20,000 nucleotides of DNA. Source: an uncultured virus (IMG/VR IMGVR_UViG_3300022660_000071) (Duplodnaviria; Heunggongvirae; Uroviricota; Caudoviricetes). Every line of letters begins with the position of its first letter. The stretch's first letter is position 1. Shown here one piece after another: positions 6,382-19,501 of the stretch. The notes under the pieces are model-generated. The model worked only from the letters and a program-made list of their open reading frames with translations. It was not told the DNA's origin and ran no database searches. The stretch is taken from the IMG/VR virus record IMGVR_UViG_3300022660_000071; one strand, 5' to 3'. Both the position numbers and the translations under genes were made by a program.

Positions 6382-6774
6382 TTACGATATTTGACGTGCT
6401 TCATCAAATAGTAATAAATTAAAAGTATTGTGTGTATAATCAATCTGGTTAATGCCAGAAAATTTACAGTATAATTTACCTTTTTGTACGTCAGTAATAA
6501 TGTCTACTGAATTTCTAGTTATTTTAATTTGAGGCAAAAATATTGCAATCTGAGTATAAAGTGTATCAATTAACATATCTTTTAATACATAGCTATTTTG
6601 GTTAAACATATAGTGTTTTAATAAAATACCAAAATACGGATCACACTCAAGTTCTCCGCGCTCAGATTGAAGCAGTAATAACACGTTCTGTTTAGTAGCC
6701 TTTCCGTACTCGTCTGCACGCCAAATTTGAGAACTATTTGACCTAAACATTTTTGGAAACTTGTAAGATCTCAT
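6382..6774 (-). CDS. gp25-like / GpW baseplate wedge subunit
   Basis: 130 aa; ERGELECDPYFGILLKHYMFNQ matches the gp25-family GE..PxFGxxL..F pattern; AGGAG RBS; lies between spike-like and wedge genes. Confidence 0.8.
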   Translation of the reverse strand: MRSYKFPKMFRSNSSQIWRADEYGKATKQNVLLLLQSERGELECDPYFGILLKHYMFNQNSYVLKDMLIDTLYTQIAIFLPQIKITRNSVDIITDVQKGKLYCKFSGINQIDYTHNTFNLLLFDEARQIS

Positions 6775-6790
6775 AAACTATACTCCTATT

Positions 6791-7459
6791 TTATATATTT
6801 GGATACTTCTTATCTGCAGGTGGGTCAAGATACTGTCTAATATTATTCTTTTTAGAACAATTCTCGCCGCAAATGATACAAAAGTCGTTTTCTTCTTGAT
6901 ACATAAAGGGACAATATTCTTCATCATGTAGCCAAGAGTTATTATCGTCTAAATCTCCATCGTCGATTTCAACGTTTTCTGGCTTTAGCTGCCACTGAGT
7001 CCAATTTTTAAAACACTTAAAGTCGGAGCTTATATGATCAACATTTGCTTTAGCATAACGTTCTAACCACTTTATGTAATCTGCAATACTTTTTAAAGAT
7101 GTAAAATCTTTATATTCATTTTGCGGTGTTTGTGGAAACGTAAAGGTTGTTGATGCAGGTAAATTTGCGGTACTATTTACTGTCAAATTATTAAATATGC
7201 CGCCTCCACCACGTATATTTCCCTCAGAGGCTCCAGTAAAAAGCTTACCTAAAATAATAGGCTTTTCCATCGCATTTTCTTCAAAACCAATAAATACGAC
7301 ATCATTAACTTTTAAATTGTTAAATATACCAGGTGTAATATTTATCAAAGCAGTAGCTTCTACTGGTTTTGTCATAGAAGCGGACTTAAATAAAGGTATT
7401 TCTACGGTACAACGAGTACCAGTAGCATTTATTGATTTTATAATTGCCTTAGTAATCAA
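6791..7459 (-). CDS. Putative baseplate spike / gpV-gp5 OB-fold-like protein
   Basis: LKVNDVVFIGFEENAMEKPIILGKLF resembles the gpV/gp5 OB motif (GDxVxVxFxxGDxxxPxIxG); baseplate gene context; Cys-containing C-terminus. Confidence 0.6.
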   Translation of the reverse strand: MITKAIIKSINATGTRCTVEIPLFKSASMTKPVEATALINITPGIFNNLKVNDVVFIGFEENAMEKPIILGKLFTGASEGNIRGGGGIFNNLTVNSTANLPASTTFTFPQTPQNEYKDFTSLKSIADYIKWLERYAKANVDHISSDFKCFKNWTQWQLKPENVEIDDGDLDDNNSWLHDEEYCPFMYQEENDFCIICGENCSKKNNIRQYLDPPADKKYPNI

Positions 7460-7955: not shown

Positions 7956-8672
7956 TTAATTTCCTTTATCTTTAATATCATCTAATATTTCAACCGTATT
8001 AAATAAAAAGTGCATTTTATCTATACGTTTGTTTATATGCCAATGTCCACAGTACCAGGCTTTATAATCAAGTTTATTTTCGATTTCATCAAGCCATTTT
8101 TCAGTGCTGTCATCAACAGTAGATTGATCAATGCCTGGTAAAAATACCTCAATAGGCTCATATTTAAATGGACAGGTGTGTGAAAATACAACATCTACTT
8201 TATTGCCCGCTTCCGCAATTTGGCGCTCTGCGTAAAGTTTAATACCTTTACATGGTTGTTCATCAAAAAACCAGGCATAGCCTTCTTTAAGACGATAATA
8301 CTTATCTACACTGTACGCTCCGCCAAGCACTAGACAACTCAAGCCCTCTAAATTAAAGATGGATCCATCATGAGCGAAGAGCAGGTTGGGATACTCTGGT
8401 TGAACATATACTTGTCCACCATTCCAATCCATAAGCTCATATCCCCCAATCATCGCAGGACGCGCTTCGTGATTACCATGGATACAAAGAATGGTAGCAT
8501 CAATATATTTACTTAAAGCTTCTTTTGTTCTATTATCTTTTTTATTAAGATAATAGTTCGCTCCAACGTCACCAAGAAGCACTATAATATCATCTTTAGT
8601 TATTCCCCAGCGCTGAGCCATGTAAATAATTTCTGATGGATTACCGTGAATATCTCCTGTAATATATACCAT
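7956..8672 (-). CDS. Calcineurin-like metallophosphoesterase
   Basis: Motifs GDIHG, LGDVG, HGNHE, SHTCP, GHWH. Confidence 0.93.
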   Translation of the reverse strand: MVYITGDIHGNPSEIIYMAQRWGITKDDIIVLLGDVGANYYLNKKDNRTKEALSKYIDATILCIHGNHEARPAMIGGYELMDWNGGQVYVQPEYPNLLFAHDGSIFNLEGLSCLVLGGAYSVDKYYRLKEGYAWFFDEQPCKGIKLYAERQIAEAGNKVDVVFSHTCPFKYEPIEVFLPGIDQSTVDDSTEKWLDEIENKLDYKAWYCGHWHINKRIDKMHFLFNTVEILDDIKDKGN

Positions 8673-8983: not shown

Positions 8984-9793
8984 TTAGATTTCTTTTTCTA
9001 GTAAATATTGTTCAATATAATTTCTATCCTGAGTAAAAATTGGAATCTCTGTATCTATTACCCAATCATGCTTATAACCTATAAGTCTATCAGTGCATTC
9101 AACTTCTTTTTTAATGCAACAAACACCACGCTTGAATTCAATAGGCATATCGTTAAAATTAATACCTTTTTGCAACATCAACATGTCTTGAATATCATTG
9201 CAACTTTTACCTTGTAATTCTCTATGAGAAAAATGAGTTTGACCTAACATTTGAATAGCATTTCGAGTTGCGTCTTGCTGCCTCCAAATAAAGCAGTTAG
9301 TTACTTCTTCTTTTGGAATATTAAAACAACGGGCATCAAACATTGCGCCTTTATCACGAGCTAGGCACATGGTCTTGTGGTAGTCATCCATGCCAATAGC
9401 GCCCTCAAAGTGGCGATTAACGGCAGTTCTAAAATACTTATTAAACATTAAAGTCGCCATCGAAGCTGCAATAGAGCACATTTTCTGAACGCCATAACCA
9501 AACCAAGCATCAGTTGTAAGAGTAGTATAGTCAGTCAAGAGAAGTGTAATCTCGTCAGACTGCGTATAACCAAGTTTACAACCCTGAATATTAGCACAAA
9601 GATACTTCATTGTGTTATTCATTGCTTCATGGAAGATTTCATCGTAAGGTCTCTTAAAACCTTTTGTAAAGCTGTGAAAAGCCTTACCATCTAAACGAAT
9701 AATTACAGGAGTTCGTCTTGTGAGGTACATCTTAGAACGATTCTCATAAAACTCCTTCATGCGATCGCCAAGTGAATCTTTAGTCTTTTTCAT
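8984..9793 (-). CDS. thg1: tRNA(His) guanylyltransferase Thg1-like protein (3'-5' RNA polymerase family)
   Basis: Motifs RLDGKAFHSFT, YTQSDEITL, FDAR, WRQQDATRN; likely start ATG 9793 after GAGGT. Confidence 0.93.
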   Translation of the reverse strand: MKKTKDSLGDRMKEFYENRSKMYLTRRTPVIIRLDGKAFHSFTKGFKRPYDEIFHEAMNNTMKYLCANIQGCKLGYTQSDEITLLLTDYTTLTTDAWFGYGVQKMCSIAASMATLMFNKYFRTAVNRHFEGAIGMDDYHKTMCLARDKGAMFDARCFNIPKEEVTNCFIWRQQDATRNAIQMLGQTHFSHRELQGKSCNDIQDMLMLQKGINFNDMPIEFKRGVCCIKKEVECTDRLIGYKHDWVIDTEIPIFTQDRNYIEQYLLEKEI

Positions 9794-10031
9794 TCTTATT
9801 ACCTCGTCTTGATTTGTTGATTCTGCGCCTTTCTTTAGCATCATCAATACAACAATAAATATATGCTACTACGATTACTAAACTTATGATACTAGTAGTA
9901 ATCCAAAGTGGAGAAGTCACCCACCACCATGACCAATTAATAACCCCAACAAGTTTCAAAACTAAAAAAATTAAAAATAACACCATACTTACTCCAATTC
10001 CACCATTTGTACTATTAGTATTTTTGCTCAT
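9780..10031 (-). CDS. Small membrane protein (2 TM)
   Basis: LFLIFLVLKLVGVINWSWWWVTSPLWI, a common phage transmembrane motif; GAGGT RBS. Confidence 0.8.
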   Translation of the reverse strand: MSKNTNSTNGGIGVSMVLFLIFLVLKLVGVINWSWWWVTSPLWITTSIISLVIVVAYIYCCIDDAKERRRINKSRRGNKNEKD

Positions 10032-10043
10032 ATAAACCTCTTA

Positions 10044-11465
10044 TTACATTTCCGCAAGAACATCTTCTGCTATTTCTGTGGTTGATTCTGTAAGCTTTTC
10101 AGAAATGATACCTTCTAAGACCTTAAATTCAAAGTTTTTATGTTTTACTGCTGCGAATTTAGGTCTATTAGTAATACGAACAACAACACCTTCTCTAGTG
10201 TGTGTCTTACCCACAGGGTCAGGTCCAGCATAAAAGTCTTCAGCACACTTTACTACCATATCACCAATAGTACCGTCACCAATTAAATAGTCATGGTCAT
10301 AACCGTCTTGTGTTACAAAATGTAGTCTATCTTCACTAATTGTAGCTTTACCGAAAACAGGAACACATTTAACGCCCATTTGTTCACAACGATACCTTAT
10401 AAAGTCTGGCGTATACTCAACAATTTCACCATCTTCATTAGTCATTGTCATACGGTAAACATAAGTATCTGATATTGGAACATCAACTGGAACTTTAAAA
10501 GCGCTAAGTTCATCTTCACCACACATAATGCACTCACCAGTTGGATTACAGCCGTAGCTAAATACAGTTTCTTTACCATACTGCTTTACAAAGTCTTTAC
10601 CAAGTTTTTCGTTATTACCATTACCCATAATAGGCGCACCAGTATGAGTAAAACCAACTACTTCGTAATAAACAGTTTCACCCTTCCAAAGCTTTCCAAC
10701 AAAAGCATTATGATGTTGTTCTCTGAATTCATTTGAGCCGTAGAAACCACCATCAAAAGTATCAAGAACTACACGACGGGTACCAGAAACATAGCCCCAA
10801 TCATAAATAGGTGTGCCAGGTCTTTTAAAAAGCTTATCAAAAAAAGTTCTCTTATAACCAGTCAAAACTTTAAGATGACCGGTACGTTGAGAAGTCCCGT
10901 GCATTTTTAGAGTAAACTCTAATTCATCACCGACCTTAAACATACCCAAGTTATAGGCAAGCTGTTCAGTGTCTGCGTGTTCTGCAAATAAAGGAGCAAT
11001 AGGCGCCTTAGTTTTTCTAGTACGATTTCCTTCAGAAAAACTGCCACGTCTAATATTAATTTTAGGTATGTACTTGGTGCAAATCTCTGTACCATTAAAC
11101 ACGTCGATTCGGTCGCCAGCCTTCAAAGTAGAAATATCACCAAAAGTTTCGAGACTATTCAAAGGAAGGAAAAGCCCATCAGACTTCTCACCTCTTAGTT
11201 TAATAGCCGCTACATTTCTTTTATCTGGGTCCATATATCCACCGATATTATTTCCTTCGGCATCTTTTTTACGAAGCAAGTTATTTGCCTCAGCAAAAGC
11301 TACTGAAAGCTGTCCACCTGTTGGAAAATATACACCAAGTTGGCCATCAGTATAAGTTAAGTCAACACAAATAGTATTACCAAATACTGAGGCAAGTTGA
11401 AGTCTGTCTGCATTAGGGTGCTTACGCACGTTTTTTAAAGCAGTTACAATAGCATAATAACTCAT
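10044..11465 (-). CDS. ATP-dependent RNA ligase with N-terminal OB/tRNA-binding-like domain (DRB0094/Rnl5- or Rnl2-like)
   Basis: N-terminal KHPNADRLQLA...KLRGEKSDGL; motif I TLKMHGTS, III YYEVVG, IV REGVVVR, V VKHKNFEF; likely start ATG 11465 after GAGGT. Confidence 0.88.
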   Translation of the reverse strand: MSYYAIVTALKNVRKHPNADRLQLASVFGNTICVDLTYTDGQLGVYFPTGGQLSVAFAEANNLLRKKDAEGNNIGGYMDPDKRNVAAIKLRGEKSDGLFLPLNSLETFGDISTLKAGDRIDVFNGTEICTKYIPKINIRRGSFSEGNRTRKTKAPIAPLFAEHADTEQLAYNLGMFKVGDELEFTLKMHGTSQRTGHLKVLTGYKRTFFDKLFKRPGTPIYDWGYVSGTRRVVLDTFDGGFYGSNEFREQHHNAFVGKLWKGETVYYEVVGFTHTGAPIMGNGNNEKLGKDFVKQYGKETVFSYGCNPTGECIMCGEDELSAFKVPVDVPISDTYVYRMTMTNEDGEIVEYTPDFIRYRCEQMGVKCVPVFGKATISEDRLHFVTQDGYDHDYLIGDGTIGDMVVKCAEDFYAGPDPVGKTHTREGVVVRITNRPKFAAVKHKNFEFKVLEGIISEKLTESTTEIAEDVLAEM

Positions 11466-11492
11466 ATTATTTAACCTCAATAATTATTTTTA

Positions 11493-14757: not shown

Positions 14758-14974
14758 TTATAATAACTCCTTTATTTTCTGAATTATCTTCAGAGTTTTT
14801 TGATTTGACTTCATAAACAGGTACCCACTCAACAGCAAAAAGTAAAAATAATAACCACAAGCATTTAAGATTACTTGTAGAAACTACCATAAAAGCTACA
14901 AAAGCAAGAACGCCTATAATAGCTAACAATCTGCAAACTATTGAAAATATAATAAAACTGTTATAATTTTTCAT
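14750..14974 (-). CDS. Small membrane protein
   Basis: 74 aa, two hydrophobic segments, AGGAG RBS. Confidence 0.75.
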   Translation of the reverse strand: MKNYNSFIIFSIVCRLLAIIGVLAFVAFMVVSTSNLKCLWLLFLLFAVEWVPVYEVKSKNSEDNSENKGVIIND

Positions 14975-14994
14975 TTAATACTCCTAAAATTTAT

Positions 14995-15011
14995 TATTAT
15001 ATAATACAATA
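14995..15011 (-). promoter_or_regulatory. Repeated promoter-like motif TATTGTATTATATAATA
   Basis: Exact match to 11493-11509; upstream of the 14974 ORF. Confidence 0.6.
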
Positions 15012-15021
15012 AAAATAATAA

Positions 15022-15060
15022 AAAAAGAAAGCTACCCAAAAAATGAATAACTTTCTTTTT
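15022..15060 (-). terminator. Probable terminator closing the tRNA array
   Basis: Minus strand AAAAAGAAAGTTATTCA...TGGGTAGCTTTCTTTTTTT hairpin with U-tract, 2 nt after the CCA of tRNA-Thr. Confidence 0.55.
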
Positions 15061-15062
15061 AG

Positions 15063-15257
15063 TGGAGCTTCAGAACGGAATTGAACCATCAACCTGCTGA
15101 TTACTGGACGCCGATACAAGATTTGAACTTGTTTATCTTAACCTAAACAATTTGATCGTAATTGTTATCAAAGGTTGTCTTTTACCTGGGATTCGGTTGT
15201 TTTCCCAATTAAACTAATCGACGAAGTCAGCTGCTCTGCCAGTTGAGCTACTGAAGC
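15063..15257 (-). tRNA. tRNA-Thr(UGU) interrupted between U34 and G35 by a 119-nt tRNA-like insert
   Basis: 5' half 15257-15224 GCTTCAG TA GCTC AACTGGCA GAGC A GCTGA CTT plus 3' half 15104-15063 GTAA TCAGC AGGTT GATGG TTCAATT CCGTT CTGAAGC T CCA give a 76-nt cloverleaf. Confidence 0.85.
15105..15223 (-). ncRNA. Nested tRNA-like element with CCA end, aberrant anticodon arm and long extra arm
   Basis: Acceptor CGTCGAT/ATCGGCG, TA, D arm GTTT-AATTGGGA-AAAC, T arm ACAAG-TTCAAAT-CTTGT, then T-CCA. Confidence 0.8.
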
Positions 15258-15261
15258 ATAA

Positions 15262-15337
15262 TGGGTGCAAAGATTGGATTCGAACCAATGATTTCCGACT
15301 TATGAGGACGGCGAGATGACCACTTCTCTACTCTGCA
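15262..15337 (-). tRNA. tRNA with CAU anticodon (Met/fMet-like)
   Basis: TGCAGAG/CTTTGCA acceptor, loop CTCATAA, TTCGAAT T-loop, CCA; A11-U24 pair is initiator-like. Confidence 0.85.
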
Positions 15338-15538
15338 ATATTGAATTAAAAATAACAGGCTCAACTAATCTTTAGTGCCTGGCACATACGTCCAGGAGTA
15401 TATGTATCTTCAATAGAAATAAGTATGAGCTCTAAGTTATTTTTATAATGGCCTGACTAAGTTAAATCCATATTTATTTTTATCCTCAGAAATAAGTTCA
15501 GGCTCTAATTTATATATTTAAATTATTTACTGTTTTTA

Positions 15539-18377: not shown

Positions 18378-18814
18378 GAGCAGGAGCCCCGTAAACCTGC
18401 TCGTCCCTATCCTACACCTAGAACGAGATTAGTCAGCTTCTCTGTTGATACTTTCGGGACATTTACTGACATTCACGGGTTTTTATTTAAGACTATTCAA
18501 CATAGCCTGTACTACTATAATTTCTTATAGTATCCAAGGAACAATGTAAAAACACTGCCTTGCCTTCCGCACATACGCTACCAAGTAGTTTATGTTATAG
18601 AGTCACTACTAAATCTCTTGCCAGAGGTATTTCAGACAGCTTTTAGTATCTTACCATATCGTAATATGTAAGGTAACATTCAACCCCAGTCTTACTGTCA
18701 AGGCTATTGGACTCACTTATACATCATAGAGGCGATTTCAGCGTTGTCATGTATAAGGTTTGGTGATCCTTCATTTTTAGACCGCCGGTTACCACACTTC
18801 CCGCGGTTTCGTGC
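18378..18814 (-). ncRNA. Candidate large structured ncRNA (ROOL/GOLLD-like setting, family unassigned)
   Basis: No credible ORF; many stems and long-range pairings (see findings); boundaries approximate. Confidence 0.45.
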
Positions 18815-18900
18815 ATAGTAAGTTTTAGTCCAATTAAACTAATCGGGGAGTTGTTCCACTTAAGGCTCCCCAATACAGGGCTCGAACCTATATTTACTAT
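18815..18900 (-). ncRNA. Circularly permuted tRNA-like domain (T arm, then acceptor hairpin, then D arm)
   Basis: ATAGTAA AT ATAGG-TTCGAGC-CCTGT ATTGGGGAG [15 nt] CTCCCCGAT TA GTTT-AATTGGACTA-AAAC TTACTAT. Confidence 0.7.
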
Positions 18901-18973
18901 TGGTACCAGATCTTGGTTACGCTCCAAGCACAGGTGGTGTATGAGACCTCCTTGTGTTCCTAGCACATCTGGC
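18901..18973 (-). ncRNA. Non-canonical tRNA-like RNA with CAU anticodon loop
   Basis: GCCAGAT/ATCTGGT-ACCA; GTG-CTAGGAA-CAC; AGGAGGT-CTCATAC-ACCACCT; CTTGG-AGCGTAA-CCAAG. Confidence 0.65.
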
Positions 18974-19107
18974 ATATTCACAACGCTCCTGATGAACCAG
19001 TCTCGTCGGTGTCAGGGTTTCCTCCACGGCATATGACCTCGTTTTGGCGTAATTCTACCTCTACCTATACTACGCGTTGCTGAGCAGAATTGTACTTTTT
19101 CCGCTTT

Positions 19108-19384: not shown

Positions 19385-19501
19385 TGGTATGTCAGAAAGG
19401 ATTTGAACCTTTATAAGAGCTTGCAAGACTCTTCACCCTTAACAGGGTTACGTCTATCCACCTACTGTCTTTGGTCTGCAGGATTTTTCCGCCACTGACA
19501 T
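19385..19501 (-). ncRNA. Expanded tRNA-like RNA (117 nt)
   Basis: ATGTCAG/CTGACAT-ACCA; T arm AAAGG-TTCAAAT-CCTTT; extra hairpins. Confidence 0.7.

What the first reader, a model, noticed from the sequence alone, without database searches (positions are those of the whole stretch)
15063..15257. Matryoshka tRNA: a complete tRNA-like RNA inserted as an 'intron' in the anticodon of tRNA-Thr(UGU)
Seen: removing 15105-15223 restores a 76-nt tRNA-Thr (loop CU-UGU-AA, G1-C72/C2-G71 Thr identity, CCA). The insert lies precisely between U34 and G35, with no target duplication and no junction ambiguity. The 119-nt insert starts at nucleotide 1 of its own 7-bp acceptor stem (CGTCGAT/ATCGGCG), has U8-A9, a D arm with GG and a T arm with TTCAAAT, and ends exactly in CCA. 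Its anticodon arm is aberrant (ACC-GAATCCCA-GGT) and it carries a long extra hairpin (AACCT...AACAATT-ACGATCA-AATTGTT...AGGTT). Known: bacterial tRNA introns are group I (larger, ending in G) and archaeal ones use bulge-helix-bulge motifs; this fits neither. RNase P leaves a 3'-OH on the upstream fragment, and 3'-processing endonucleases such as RNase Z/E leave a 5'-P on the downstream fragment. Inference: ordinary tRNA maturation could excise the inner RNA and leave 3'-OH/5'-P Thr halves, the substrate of an ATP-dependent RNA ligase such as the one at 10044-11465. That would be a new tRNA-splicing route, possibly gating tRNA production or shielding the anticodon from host nucleases or integrases. 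I do not know of a described precedent, but cannot search.
Basis: partly seen in the sequence, partly recalled or inferred. Interest (0 to 1): 0.93.

Follow-up and report, generated by a model that had tools for sequence, protein, structure and literature searches.

The report
tRNA-shaped intron inside phage tRNA
A gut phage's threonine tRNA gene is split in its anticodon by a 119-base RNA that is itself shaped like a tRNA, one of a family of such inserts in related phages that probably have to be cut out and the tRNA re-joined by a route not yet described.

Summary
Window 15063-15257 (-) is a tRNA carrying a 119-nt insert (15105-15223) in its anticodon loop. Removing the insert gives a standard tRNA-Thr(UGU). 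The insert has a 7-bp acceptor stem from its first base, D and T arms and a terminal CCA, and scores 32.4 bits on Rfam's tRNA model (cut-off 29). Contigs from two other runs bridge both junctions.

It is not a one-off. Related ~150-220-kb gut phages carry at least 14 further inserts of 47-115 nt with the same anatomy, in tRNA-Lys, Gln, Leu, Asn and Ile, mostly after nt 34. One lies in this phage's own tRNA-Lys(UUU). All 14 tested excisions give standard tRNAs. Six orthologous split tRNA-Leu genes show compensatory changes in both outer and inner helices, so the split genes are under selection and must be spliced.

RNase P cleavage, a 3'-end cut and ATP-dependent ligation remain inference; no RNA data exist. 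A complete relative lacks this ligase but has a T4 Rnl1-type one.

A precedent exists: Lak megaphage tRNA introns, including a tRNA-Thr(TGT) intron that "may encode a tRNA" (Devoto 2019), with no mechanism given. This scan noted a similar case on other DNA (e1-5779119).

The parts
15224..15257 (-). 5' exon of tRNA-Thr(UGU): acceptor 5' strand, D arm, anticodon stem 5' strand, loop bases C32 U33 U34
   Evidence: ARAGORN on the exons joined in a script gives tRNA-Thr(tgt), 76 nt. The joined form aligns full length with the uninterrupted Thr(tgt) of G001, 57 of 76 identical, with the same anticodon loop.
15105..15223 (-). 119-nt tRNA-like insert (nested intron)
   Evidence: Rfam RF00005 at 32.4 bits, gathering 29. 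Acceptor 7 of 7 and T stem 5 of 5 paired, ends T-CCA. No standard tRNA is called by ARAGORN.
15217..15223 (-). inner acceptor stem, 5' strand (CGTCGAT); its first base is the first base of the insert, the predicted RNase P site
15199..15214 (-). inner D arm (stem GTTT/AAAC, loop with GG)
   Evidence: Rfam alignment to the D arm of the tRNA model
15140..15176 (-). long central hairpin in place of a normal anticodon/variable region
   Evidence: RNAfold minimum-energy and centroid structures; 58 nt are unaligned to the tRNA model
15116..15132 (-). inner T arm ACAAG-TTCAAAT-CTTGT
15105..15115 (-). inner acceptor 3' strand (ATCGGCG), discriminator T and CCA; the last A is the last base of the insert
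15063..15104 (-). 3' exon of tRNA-Thr(UGU): G35 U36 A37 A38, anticodon stem 3' strand, variable loop, T arm, acceptor 3' strand, U73, CCA
15022..15060 (-). terminator-like hairpin with T run directly after the 3' exon; the split tRNA is the last gene of the tRNA array
15262..15337 (-). tRNA-Met(CAU) 4 nt upstream; the same Met-then-Thr order is seen in sister phage G001, where Thr(tgt) is uninterrupted
10044..11480 (-). ATP-dependent RNA ligase with an N-terminal OB domain (DraRnl / Naegleria Rnl type); candidate sealing enzyme
   Evidence: phrog_968 RNA ligase E 6e-61. TIGR02306 E 2e-13, below its cut-off. Pfam PHA02142 OB domain and RNA_ligase are weak. KMHGTS motif is invariant in 16 homologues. 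Profile against PDB: residues 8-126 match the Naegleria ligase (E 0.014) and 322-420 match T4 Rnl2 (E 0.011).
8984..9847 (-). Thg1-like 3'-5' nucleotidyltransferase (tRNA 5'-end repair family), next to the ligase
   Evidence: Pfam Thg1 E 2e-31; phrog_4717 E 2e-93; a 58%-identical homologue in G007
7956..8672 (-). calcineurin-like metallophosphoesterase, possible RNA end-healing enzyme
   Evidence: Pfam Metallophos E 7.5e-13; phrog_1649

Best explanation
The locus is a functional tRNA-Thr(UGU) gene carrying a nested, tRNA-shaped intron. It belongs to a family of CCA-ended tRNA-like or minihelix introns that sit in the anticodon loops of tRNA genes in a clade of ~150-220-kb gut phages. Shown: the anatomy, the family, selection on both outer and inner helices, and presence or absence of the insert among sister phages. 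Inferred: the whole array is transcribed. The inner element folds as an acceptor/T-arm stack ending in NCCA, so host RNase P cuts at its first base, leaving U34-3'-OH on the 5' exon. A tRNA 3'-end endonuclease (RNase Z/BN type or similar) cuts right after its CCA, leaving 5'-P on G35. The two halves stay paired through the outer cloverleaf, and the nick is sealed by a phage ATP-dependent RNA ligase (here the gene at 10044-11480). The inner RNA is released as a stable tRNA-like by-product or co-product. In one relative the inner RNA is a complete tRNA(CUA).
For: 1) Excision by the rule 'first base of the 7-bp stem up to CCA' gives an ARAGORN-standard tRNA in 14 of 14 distinct nested cases. These are Thr UGU (1), Lys UUU (4), Gln UUG (3), Leu UAA (4), Asn GUU (1) and Ile UAU (1). 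2) Of 49 ARAGORN -i calls, 18 meet 'ends in CCA and at least 6 of 7 closing pairs'. Only 5 do so summed over the other 63 trinucleotides. 3) Inner acceptor cells are paired in 96 of 98 (slid controls 36-49 of 98). Inner T-stem cells are paired in 70 of 70 (controls 24-39 of 70), and the T arm was not used for selection. 4) In six orthologous split tRNA-Leu(UAA) genes, 98.1% of 210 cells are paired and 22 of 35 pairs changed on both sides. None of 500 shuffles reaches this, and slid controls give 35-47% paired and 0-4 such pairs. Compensatory pairs number 6 of 7 in the outer acceptor, 4 of 5 in the outer T stem and 6 of 7 in the inner acceptor. 5) Spliced forms align end to end with uninterrupted tRNAs of the same anticodon in sister phages, with identical anticodon loops. 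Which tRNA is split differs among sisters: Thr and Lys in G000, Asn in G001, Gln in G004. 6) In the 95%- and 100%-complete genomes G004 and G007, the split gene is the only gene found for that anticodon. 7) The nested 77-nt element of L021 419-572 is itself called a standard tRNA(cta), so its ends should be made by normal tRNA maturation. 8) These phages encode CCA in 24 of 25, 28 of 29 and 29 of 31 standard tRNAs, like the inserts. 9) RNA ligase, Thg1 and a phosphoesterase lie 3.6-7 kb from the split gene. G007 lacks this ligase but has an Rnl1-type ligase, a kinase, Thg1 and a phosphoesterase. 10) From established knowledge rather than a call: bacterial RNase P accepts acceptor/T-stem minihelices with 3' RCCA and leaves 3'-OH on the leader. 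RNase Z leaves 5'-P on the trailer. ATP-dependent RNA ligases join 3'-OH to 5'-P.
Against: No RNA data exist: no RNA run was listed and only DNA contigs could be laid, so neither cleavage nor joining is shown. No enzyme is known to me that cuts exactly after an encoded CCA in the unknown host. In many bacteria CCA blocks RNase Z (recalled), and exonucleolytic trimming would destroy the 3' exon. No homologue of this particular 119-nt insert was found, so selection on this very copy is untested. The ligase family is not constant across phages with such introns, and the ligase-bearing loci were chosen through the ligase, so co-occurrence is not a test. The DraRnl/Naegleria-type ligases that the window's enzyme most resembles are known for sealing nicks in duplex RNA (recalled), not anticodon loops. 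Lak phage introns carry a 5' hairpin and linker before their tRNA-like unit, so RNase P alone cannot define their 5' splice site. In three related loci (L019, L020, L024) the intron ends ACAA rather than ACCA.
Confidence: 0.55

Rival explanations
1. It is a true spliced intron, but it is removed by a dedicated, still unrecognised endonuclease (phage or host) that reads the junction geometry. The halves are joined by another chemistry, for example 2',3'-cyclic phosphate plus 5'-OH by RtcB or a 2'-5' ligase. The tRNA-like shape of the intron would then serve another purpose, such as stability, a decoy role or a function of its own.
For: No known nuclease cuts exactly after CCA in an unknown host. 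Junction positions vary: after nt 34 in 11 cases, after nt 35 in 2 and after nt 36 in 1 of the 14. Several proteins between the ligase and the array match no family. Lak introns do not begin at the tRNA-like unit.
Against: The exact coincidence of both intron ends with the mature ends of a tRNA-like RNA in 14 of 14 cases would then be unexplained. No RtcB was found in the five phage records searched. None of the unknown neighbouring proteins is conserved across the phages that carry nested introns.
Confidence: 0.2
2. The inner tRNA-like RNA is the real product. The outer tRNA has become a mere processing scaffold, and its halves are discarded after the inner RNA is released.
For: Free-standing CCA-ended tRNA-like RNAs of similar size occur in the same arrays, for example window 19385-19501(-). 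One nested element is a complete tRNA(cta).
Against: Outer anticodon stems and the split 7-nt anticodon loops are conserved, and outer helices evolve by compensatory change. The split gene is the only one found for its anticodon in the near-complete genome G004 and the complete genome G007. A scaffold would not need a correct anticodon reading across the junction in 14 of 14 cases.
Confidence: 0.1
3. This particular insert is a recent one-off insertion of a tRNA-like element that has inactivated the tRNA-Thr gene (a young pseudogene).
For: No homologue of the 119-nt insert and no orthologous interrupted Thr gene were found. Sister phage G001 has the uninterrupted gene. The inner anticodon region is aberrant.
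Against: Both exons are intact and give a standard cloverleaf. No other Thr(tgt) gene is seen in the 54 kb held, though that record is only about 24% complete. The insert obeys every rule of a family whose members are demonstrably under selection. The sequence is identical in contigs from several runs.
Confidence: 0.08
4. It is a self-splicing ribozyme (group I-like or a small self-cleaving motif).
For: Known bacterial tRNA introns are group I, and that of tRNA-Leu(UAA) also lies between nt 34 and 35 (recalled).
Against: No ribozyme or intron family of Rfam matches 14950-15350 even at E up to 10. Family members are as short as 47 nt and consist of two stacked helices, far below the size of any group I intron (recalled).
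Confidence: 0.02

Closest known systems
'Enigmatic' tRNA introns of Lak megaphages (Devoto et al. [quoted passage not shown] 4 legend and part of Table S6)
   Same: Both are phage tRNA genes interrupted in the anticodon loop by 79-141-nt inserts. One Lak case is a tRNA-Thr(TGT) whose 114-nt intron gives an Rfam tRNA hit and 'itself may encode a tRNA'. In both, the predicted excision point is offset by one base from the program's call, and presence or absence varies among related genomes. By my reading of Table S6, the 3' end of the Lak intron also coincides with the 3' end of the tRNA-like unit.
   Different: Lak introns begin with a small hairpin and an A-rich linker before the tRNA-like unit, end without CCA (Lak tRNA genes do not encode CCA), and lie after nt 36 or 37 (read by eye). 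Here the insert is nothing but the tRNA-like RNA, from its first base to CCA, and lies after nt 34. No sequence similarity is evident by eye, and it was not tested with a tool. The paper gives no mechanism.
Group I introns in bacterial tRNA anticodon loops (e.g. cyanobacterial tRNA-Leu(UAA); recalled)
   Same: Both are bacterial-type tRNA genes interrupted in the anticodon loop. The Leu(UAA) intron also lies between nt 34 and 35.
   Different: There is no Rfam group I match. The inserts are 47-119 nt, against roughly 200 nt or more. The structure is an acceptor/T-arm stack with CCA, not a P1-P9 ribozyme core.
Archaeal and eukaryal protein-spliced tRNA introns (bulge-helix-bulge, EndA/Sen, RtcB or Trl1; review PMC4090602 seen as a search listing only)
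   Same: Both would be protein-dependent removal of an anticodon-loop intron followed by enzymatic ligation. Archaeal introns can also carry other small RNAs (recalled).
   Different: No bulge-helix-bulge is present: the closing stem of the insert abuts the loop directly. The position is 34/35, not 37/38. The expected ends are 3'-OH and 5'-P rather than cyclic phosphate and 5'-OH.
Phage T4 tRNA repair (PrrC anticodon nuclease, Pnkp, Rnl1; recalled, and the jumbo-phage overview PMC7824862 read in passages)
   Same: A phage RNA ligase seals a break in the anticodon loop of a tRNA. Ligase, Thg1 and a phosphoesterase are clustered here. The split tRNAs include classic anticodon-nuclease targets such as Lys UUU, Gln UUG and Asn GUU (the target list is recalled).
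   Different: Here the break would be programmed in the gene, not inflicted by a host toxin. The ligase is of the OB-first DraRnl/Naegleria type, not Rnl1. No polynucleotide kinase was seen in the 54 kb held.
t-elements and tRNA punctuation (tRNA-like structures that direct RNase P and RNase Z cuts in organelle transcripts; recalled)
   Same: A tRNA-shaped fold is used purely as a cleavage signal for the tRNA end-processing enzymes.
   Different: Those elements lie between genes and no re-joining follows. Here the signal lies inside another tRNA, which must be re-ligated.

Membership tests
   7 of 7 pairs (one G-U) in the window's insert; 96 of 98 cells across 14 members
   5 of 5 pairs here; 70 of 70 cells across 14 members, not a selection criterion
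   Ends T-CCA here; A-CCA in the other 13. Variants ending ACAA occur in L019, L020 and L024.
   ARAGORN calls tRNA-Thr(tgt); 14 of 14 in the family give standard tRNAs
   No BLAST or exact-pattern match of the 119 nt outside its own genome. By contrast, the Lys intron of the same genome matches the Gln intron of G004 (28 nt, 93%).
   No RNA run was listed
tRNA (Rfam RF00005), for the inner element | Score at or above the gathering cut-off | tested here: met
   32.4 bits against 29
tRNA (Rfam RF00005), for the inner element | A 5-bp anticodon stem with a 7-nt loop that presents an anticodon | tested here: not met
   58 nt are unaligned in place of the anticodon arm. ARAGORN finds nothing without allowing an intron, and only a weak Gly(ccc) with a 40-nt 'intron' when one is allowed.
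Lak megaphage tRNA introns (Devoto 2019) | Anticodon-loop insert in a phage tRNA that contains a tRNA-like unit ending at the intron's 3' end | tested here: met
   for the window; Table S6 read by eye for Lak
Lak megaphage tRNA introns (Devoto 2019) | A 5' hairpin and A-rich linker before the tRNA-like unit; no CCA | tested here: not met
   The window's insert starts at the acceptor stem and ends in CCA
Group I intron | Match to the group I covariance model and a ribozyme core of about 200 nt or more | tested here: not met
   No such match at E up to 10 in 14950-15350; the insert is 119 nt
Bulge-helix-bulge (archaeal-type) tRNA intron | Two 3-nt bulges separated by a 4-bp helix at the splice sites | tested here: not met
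   By inspection of the sequence and the fold: 3 loop bases, then the 7-bp closing stem, then TCCA plus 4 loop bases, with no central 4-bp helix
ATP-dependent RNA ligase, DraRnl/Naegleria (OB-first) type, for the gene at 10044-11480 | Nucleotidyltransferase motif I lysine (KxxG) and family profile match | tested here: met
   KMHGTS is invariant in 16 homologues; phrog_968 RNA ligase E 6e-61 over residues 3-457
ATP-dependent RNA ligase, DraRnl/Naegleria (OB-first) type, for the gene at 10044-11480 | Score above the curated cut-off of TIGR02306, or a solved-structure match | tested here: inconclusive
   49.7 bits against a cut-off of 151. PDB profile matches reach only E 0.01-0.02. The AlphaFold model has pLDDT 58.5 and was not searched.

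The most novel reading that the evidence does not exclude
Bacterial viruses may have a third, protein-only route of tRNA splicing. The intron is itself a tRNA-shaped RNA, so the universal tRNA end-maturation enzymes (RNase P at its first base, a 3'-end nuclease after its CCA) would act as the splicing endonuclease, and the phage's RNA-repair ligase as the splicing ligase. One gene would then yield two RNAs; in one relative these are a tRNA-Ile(UAU) and a nested tRNA(CUA). Because each insert equals a mature small RNA from its 5' end to CCA-3', and sits where anticodon nucleases cut (after nt 34 of Lys, Gln, Asn, Leu and Thr tRNAs), the introns may have arisen when the repair ligase trapped a bystander tRNA-like RNA between the halves of a cut tRNA and the product was copied back into DNA.
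Probability: 0.4. Interest if true: 0.92.

Novelty: new variant of a known kind. Interest (0 to 1): 0.82.

Why it matters
Bacteria and their viruses are thought to remove tRNA introns only by self-splicing. If these inserts are removed by RNase P, a 3'-end nuclease and an RNA ligase, that would be a new splicing pathway built entirely from housekeeping and repair enzymes. It would give phage RNA ligases and perhaps Thg1-like enzymes a constitutive role beyond repairing damage by host toxins. It would also explain the 'enigmatic' introns reported in Lak megaphages in 2019.

There is a practical consequence as well. Standard tRNA finders miss these genes or name them wrongly: ARAGORN -i calls Arg, Pro or Thr where the true tRNAs are Thr, Gln or Lys. 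Phage tRNA inventories and inferences about codon use or recoding are therefore biased. The design, a tRNA-shaped cassette that excises itself from another RNA, can be tested directly in vitro.

Tried and rejected
- RNA evidence: the look-up of sequencing runs listed no RNA holder, so expression and splicing could not be examined.
- An apparent 'joined form' in run X1 links 15104 to 15227 with three other letters between, one contig, side 28. It is an uninterrupted tRNA-Thr(UGU)-like gene of another organism in the sample, not this phage without its insert. I use it only as a weak pointer to the Thr reading.
- Homologues of the 119-nt insert: blastn against 46 related loci, distant blastn against 50,697 phage records, exact patterns from both of its ends and from the 5' junction in IMG/VR, and blastn-short against all sequence held. 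None was found.
- Closest relatives by ligase identity (L002-L005) have no tRNA array within 10 kb. I therefore fetched G001 and G004 whole.
- Structure of the ligase: the AlphaFold model had mean pLDDT 58.5, so I did not run a fold search. phmmer against PDB found nothing.
- Six-frame family searches for RNA ligases in phages with split tRNAs were unreliable. The PF09511 search rang nowhere, controls included, and missed the Rnl1-type gene that hmmscan of called ORFs then found in G007.
- I looked for a conserved unknown protein near the ligase that could be a dedicated endonuclease. None is shared by the phages with nested introns.
- A crude test for stop-codon recoding in L019-L027 was not discriminating.
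- Fold energy alone does not single out the insert (z = -1.6).
- Literature: nine full-text searches found no description of CCA-ended or RNase P-defined tRNA introns in phages other than Devoto 2019. The library lacks most subscription journals. The large supplementary PDF of that paper could not be read and may say more about the introns. Borges et al. 2021 (bioRxiv, passages) mentions only group I and mobile introns.
Full report
**What is there.** The window is part of a 54-kb IMG/VR virus record, estimated at about 24% complete. It carries 17 standard tRNA genes on the minus strand. At the downstream end of this array, 4 nt after tRNA-Met (15262-15337), lies the 195-nt stretch 15063-15257(-).

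ARAGORN finds no tRNA in that stretch unless introns are allowed. With bases 15105-15223 removed, it calls a standard 76-nt tRNA-Thr(tgt) with an encoded CCA. The 119-nt insert begins with CGTCGAT, which pairs with ATCGGCG near its end. It has T8-A9, a D arm with GG, and a T arm ACAAG-TTCAAAT-CTTGT, and it ends T-CCA.

Rfam's tRNA model matches the insert at 32.4 bits (gathering 29). Acceptor, D and T arms align, and 58 nt sit where the anticodon arm should be. RNAfold predicts the closing stem, the T hairpin and a long central hairpin. The energy is unremarkable, with z = -1.6. A terminator-like hairpin follows the 3' exon directly.

**Assembly.** Contigs of runs X5 and X6, which are not flagged as the possible source, span both junctions with no difference. 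The assembly therefore stands.

**Where the junction lies.** ARAGORN -i slides the same-length intron by one base and calls Arg(tct). Four observations favour the placement between nt 34 and 35:
- The family rule described below holds in every case tested.
- Sister phage G001 has an uninterrupted Thr(tgt) directly after its tRNA-Met. It aligns full length with the spliced form, 57 of 76 identical, with the same loop and the same U73.
- Among all standard tRNAs I held, the best match of the spliced form is a Thr(tgt), at 61 of 76. The phage's own Arg(tct) matches at 48 of 76, and other tRNAs reach 55-57, so this evidence is weak.
- The window already has an Arg(tct) and no other Thr(tgt).

**It is one of a family.** Through the ligase gene I fetched 46 related loci, and then the whole records G001 and G004. 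ARAGORN -i made 49 intron calls in this material. Of these, 18 have an intron that ends in CCA after a shift of at most 4 bases and whose first 7 bases pair (at least 6 of 7) with the 7 bases before N73-CCA. Only 5 calls meet the same test summed over the other 63 trinucleotides.

Removing duplicates leaves 14 distinct nested inserts of 47-119 nt. Applying the rule 'intron = first base of the stem up to CCA' turns all 14 into ARAGORN-standard tRNAs:

| Outer tRNA | Number |
|---|---|
| Thr UGU (this one) | 1 |
| Lys UUU | 4 |
| Gln UUG | 3 |
| Leu UAA | 4 |
| Asn GUU | 1 |
| Ile UAU | 1 |

The junction is after nt 34 in 11 cases, after nt 35 in 2 and after nt 36 in 1.

- One of the four Lys(UUU) cases is in this same genome, just outside the window (G000 6762-6895, 58-nt insert).
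- ARAGORN -i misnames most of these genes, calling Pro, Thr or Arg where the true tRNA is Gln, Lys, Asn or Thr.
- Across the 14 inserts, the closing stem is paired in 96 of 98 cells (slid controls 36-49 of 98).
- A 5-bp/7-nt hairpin abutting the stem, which I did not select for, is paired in 70 of 70 cells (controls 24-39 of 70).
- The loop of that hairpin is TTCRANT-like, GTCATCA or GGCAGYA.
- A scan of IMG/VR for the last type added three more split tRNA-Leu(UAA) genes. It also showed that the same odd T arm occurs in many free-standing phage tRNAs.
- Three loci (L019, L020, L024) carry an Ile(UAU) gene with a 73-nt insert of the same build that ends ACAA instead of ACCA.

**The split genes are under selection.** Six orthologous split tRNA-Leu(UAA) precursors were aligned and scored on the nested structure:
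- 98.1% of 210 cells are paired.
- 22 of 35 pairs have changes on both sides, and none of 500 shuffles reaches this.
- Slid controls give 35-47% paired and 0-4 such pairs.
- Compensatory pairs occur in the outer acceptor (6 of 7), the outer T stem (4 of 5), the outer anticodon stem (2 of 5) and the inner closing stem (6 of 7).

The sample is small (n = 6) and the structure was drawn from one of the sequences. Even so, the signal is large.

Spliced forms of the Thr, Lys, Gln and Asn genes align end to end with uninterrupted genes of the same anticodon in sister phages. Which gene is split differs among the three sisters: Thr and Lys in G000, Asn in G001, Gln in G004. The Lys insert of G000 and the Gln insert of G004 share their 3' 28 nt at 93%, so these elements move between tRNA genes. 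In G004 (95% complete) and G007 (100% complete, terminal repeats) the split gene is the only one found for its anticodon. A dead gene would not behave this way. The RNA must be cut and re-joined.

**How it probably works.** The steps below are inferred, not shown.

- An acceptor stem stacked on a T arm with a 3' NCCA is the minimal substrate of bacterial RNase P (established knowledge).
- In every member, the 5' junction is exactly where RNase P would cut. That cut would leave a 3'-OH on the 5' exon.
- The 3' junction is exactly the mature 3' end of the inner RNA. An endonucleolytic cut there, as RNase Z makes, would leave a 5'-P on the 3' exon.
- These are the ends that ATP-dependent RNA ligases join.
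- The phage tRNA genes themselves encode CCA in 24 of 25, 28 of 29 and 29 of 31 cases, so the inserts mimic local tRNA gene ends.
- By my reading of Table S6, Lak megaphage tRNA genes lack CCA, and their introns end at the discriminator of the tRNA-like unit. That parallel fits a 3' junction set by tRNA 3'-end processing.
- The 77-nt insert in L021 419-572 is itself called a standard tRNA(cta). If that tRNA is used, its ends must be made by the normal tRNA maturation enzymes.

**The candidate enzymes.** The gene at 10044-11480 is an RNA ligase:
- phrog_968, E 6e-61.
- TIGR02306 (DraRnl), E 2e-13, below its cut-off.
- A KMHGTS motif is invariant in 16 homologues.
- Weak profile matches link its N-terminus to the OB domain of the Naegleria ligase and a later segment to T4 Rnl2.

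Next to it lie a Thg1-like enzyme and a metallophosphoesterase.

**Against the model.**
- There is no RNA evidence at all.
- I know of no nuclease shown to cut right after an encoded CCA in the unknown host. In several bacteria CCA inhibits RNase Z (recalled).
- The complete relative G007 has a split tRNA-Leu but no homologue of this ligase. hmmscan of its ORFs found instead a T4 Rnl1-type ligase (PF09511, E 1e-15), a P-loop kinase, Thg1 and a phosphoesterase. 'A phage RNA ligase' therefore survives as the sealing enzyme, but 'this ligase' does not generalise.
- The related loci were collected through the ligase, so co-occurrence is not a test.
- Lak introns have a 5' hairpin and linker before the tRNA-like unit, so RNase P cannot define their 5' junction.
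- No homologue of this particular 119-nt insert was found. For this one copy, a recent neutral or harmful insertion cannot be excluded.

**Comparison with what is known.**
- The closest precedent is Devoto et al. 2019 (PMC6784885). Lak megaphages have tRNA genes with 79-141-nt 'enigmatic introns'. These include a tRNA-Thr(TGT) whose intron gives an Rfam tRNA hit, with presence or absence variants that place the excision point one base from the program's call. No mechanism was proposed.
- The present class differs from the Lak introns: it is the bare tRNA-like RNA from its first base to CCA.
- It is not a group I intron. Rfam gives no such match at E up to 10, and members are as short as 47 nt.
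- It is not a bulge-helix-bulge intron, by inspection.
- Nine full-text searches found no later account. The library is incomplete.
- This scan had already noted a 75-nt CCA-ended tRNA-like element inside a phage tRNA-Ile(UAU) on other DNA (e1-5779119). That agrees with the picture here but is not independent proof.

**Verdict.** I rate it a new variant of a known but unexplained kind (phage tRNA introns). There is a substantial chance that it represents a new, protein-only tRNA splicing route.

Noticed in passing
G000:C1:6762-6895 (about 430 nt beyond the window's high end; L078:6762-6895): A second nested intron in the same phage. It is a tRNA-Lys(UUU) with a 58-nt acceptor/T-arm minihelix ending ACCA after nt 34. 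Its 3' 28 nt are 93% identical to the 115-nt insert in tRNA-Gln(UUG) of sister phage G004.
   Followed up: yes
window 19385-19501 (-): A free-standing 117-nt CCA-ended tRNA-like RNA between tRNA-Val and tRNA-Arg. It has a 7-bp closing stem, a T arm with loop TTCAAAT, an anticodon-like arm with loop CUUGCAA, and a large insertion where the D arm should be. Rfam tRNA scores 24.7 bits, below the cut-off.
   Followed up: partly
window 18901-18973 (-): A 73-nt stretch with a 7-bp closing stem, a 5-bp/7-nt hairpin and ACCA. Neither ARAGORN nor Rfam calls it. It overlaps the mechanical ORF 18724-18981.
   Followed up: no
L021:419-572: A tRNA-Ile(UAU) gene whose 77-nt insert (after nt 36) is itself called a standard tRNA with anticodon CTA (amber suppressor type) by ARAGORN. 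This would be two complete tRNAs nested in one gene.
   Followed up: partly
L019:919-1068, L020:923-1072, L024:1278-1427: A tRNA-Ile(UAU) with a 73-nt insert of the same build (closing stem, T arm with loop GGCAGGA), but ending ACAA instead of ACCA.
   Followed up: partly
L081-L160 (IMG/VR hits): An unusual T arm, GTAGG-GGCAGYA-CCTAC, occurs in many otherwise complete phage tRNAs from diverse viral contigs. Of the 80 loci held, 29 have an acceptor stem and CCA in register, and 24 of those are free-standing.
   Followed up: partly
L004:8923-9041, L003:769-887, G004:188498-188616, G001:76656-76788: A conserved 119-133-nt CCA-ended tRNA-like RNA lies about 1 kb upstream of the RNA ligase gene in the closest relatives. 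It is absent at that place in the window.
   Followed up: no
L007:15226-15604 and L028:3146-3536: Two runs of three consecutive tRNA-like genes with 25-46-nt inserts near the anticodon arm that do not end in CCA. They appear to be a different class of interrupted or two-armed tRNA.
   Followed up: no
G001:98382-98554: A 173-nt tRNA-like gene that ARAGORN -i called Asn(gtt) with a 93-nt intron not ending in CCA. It was not reproduced when the stretch was scanned alone.
   Followed up: no
L080:7642-11002 and L079:18023-18733, L080:5826-6554 (G000 outside the window): The family A DNA polymerase is in at least two pieces, followed by a GIY-YIG/NUMOD endonuclease gene. Three GIY-YIG homing-type endonucleases lie in the 54 kb, so the phage is rich in mobile elements.
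   Followed up: no
G007 (L205:4708-5820): A method caveat. The six-frame search for PF09511 found nothing in G007, and its control rang in no genome. hmmscan of the called ORF nevertheless gives RNA_lig_T4_1 at 58.5 bits.
   Followed up: yes
window 14980-15027: The AT-rich stretch downstream of the split tRNA recurs at several places in sister phages, at 75-93% identity over 26-68 nt. It may be a shared promoter or terminator motif.
   Followed up: no
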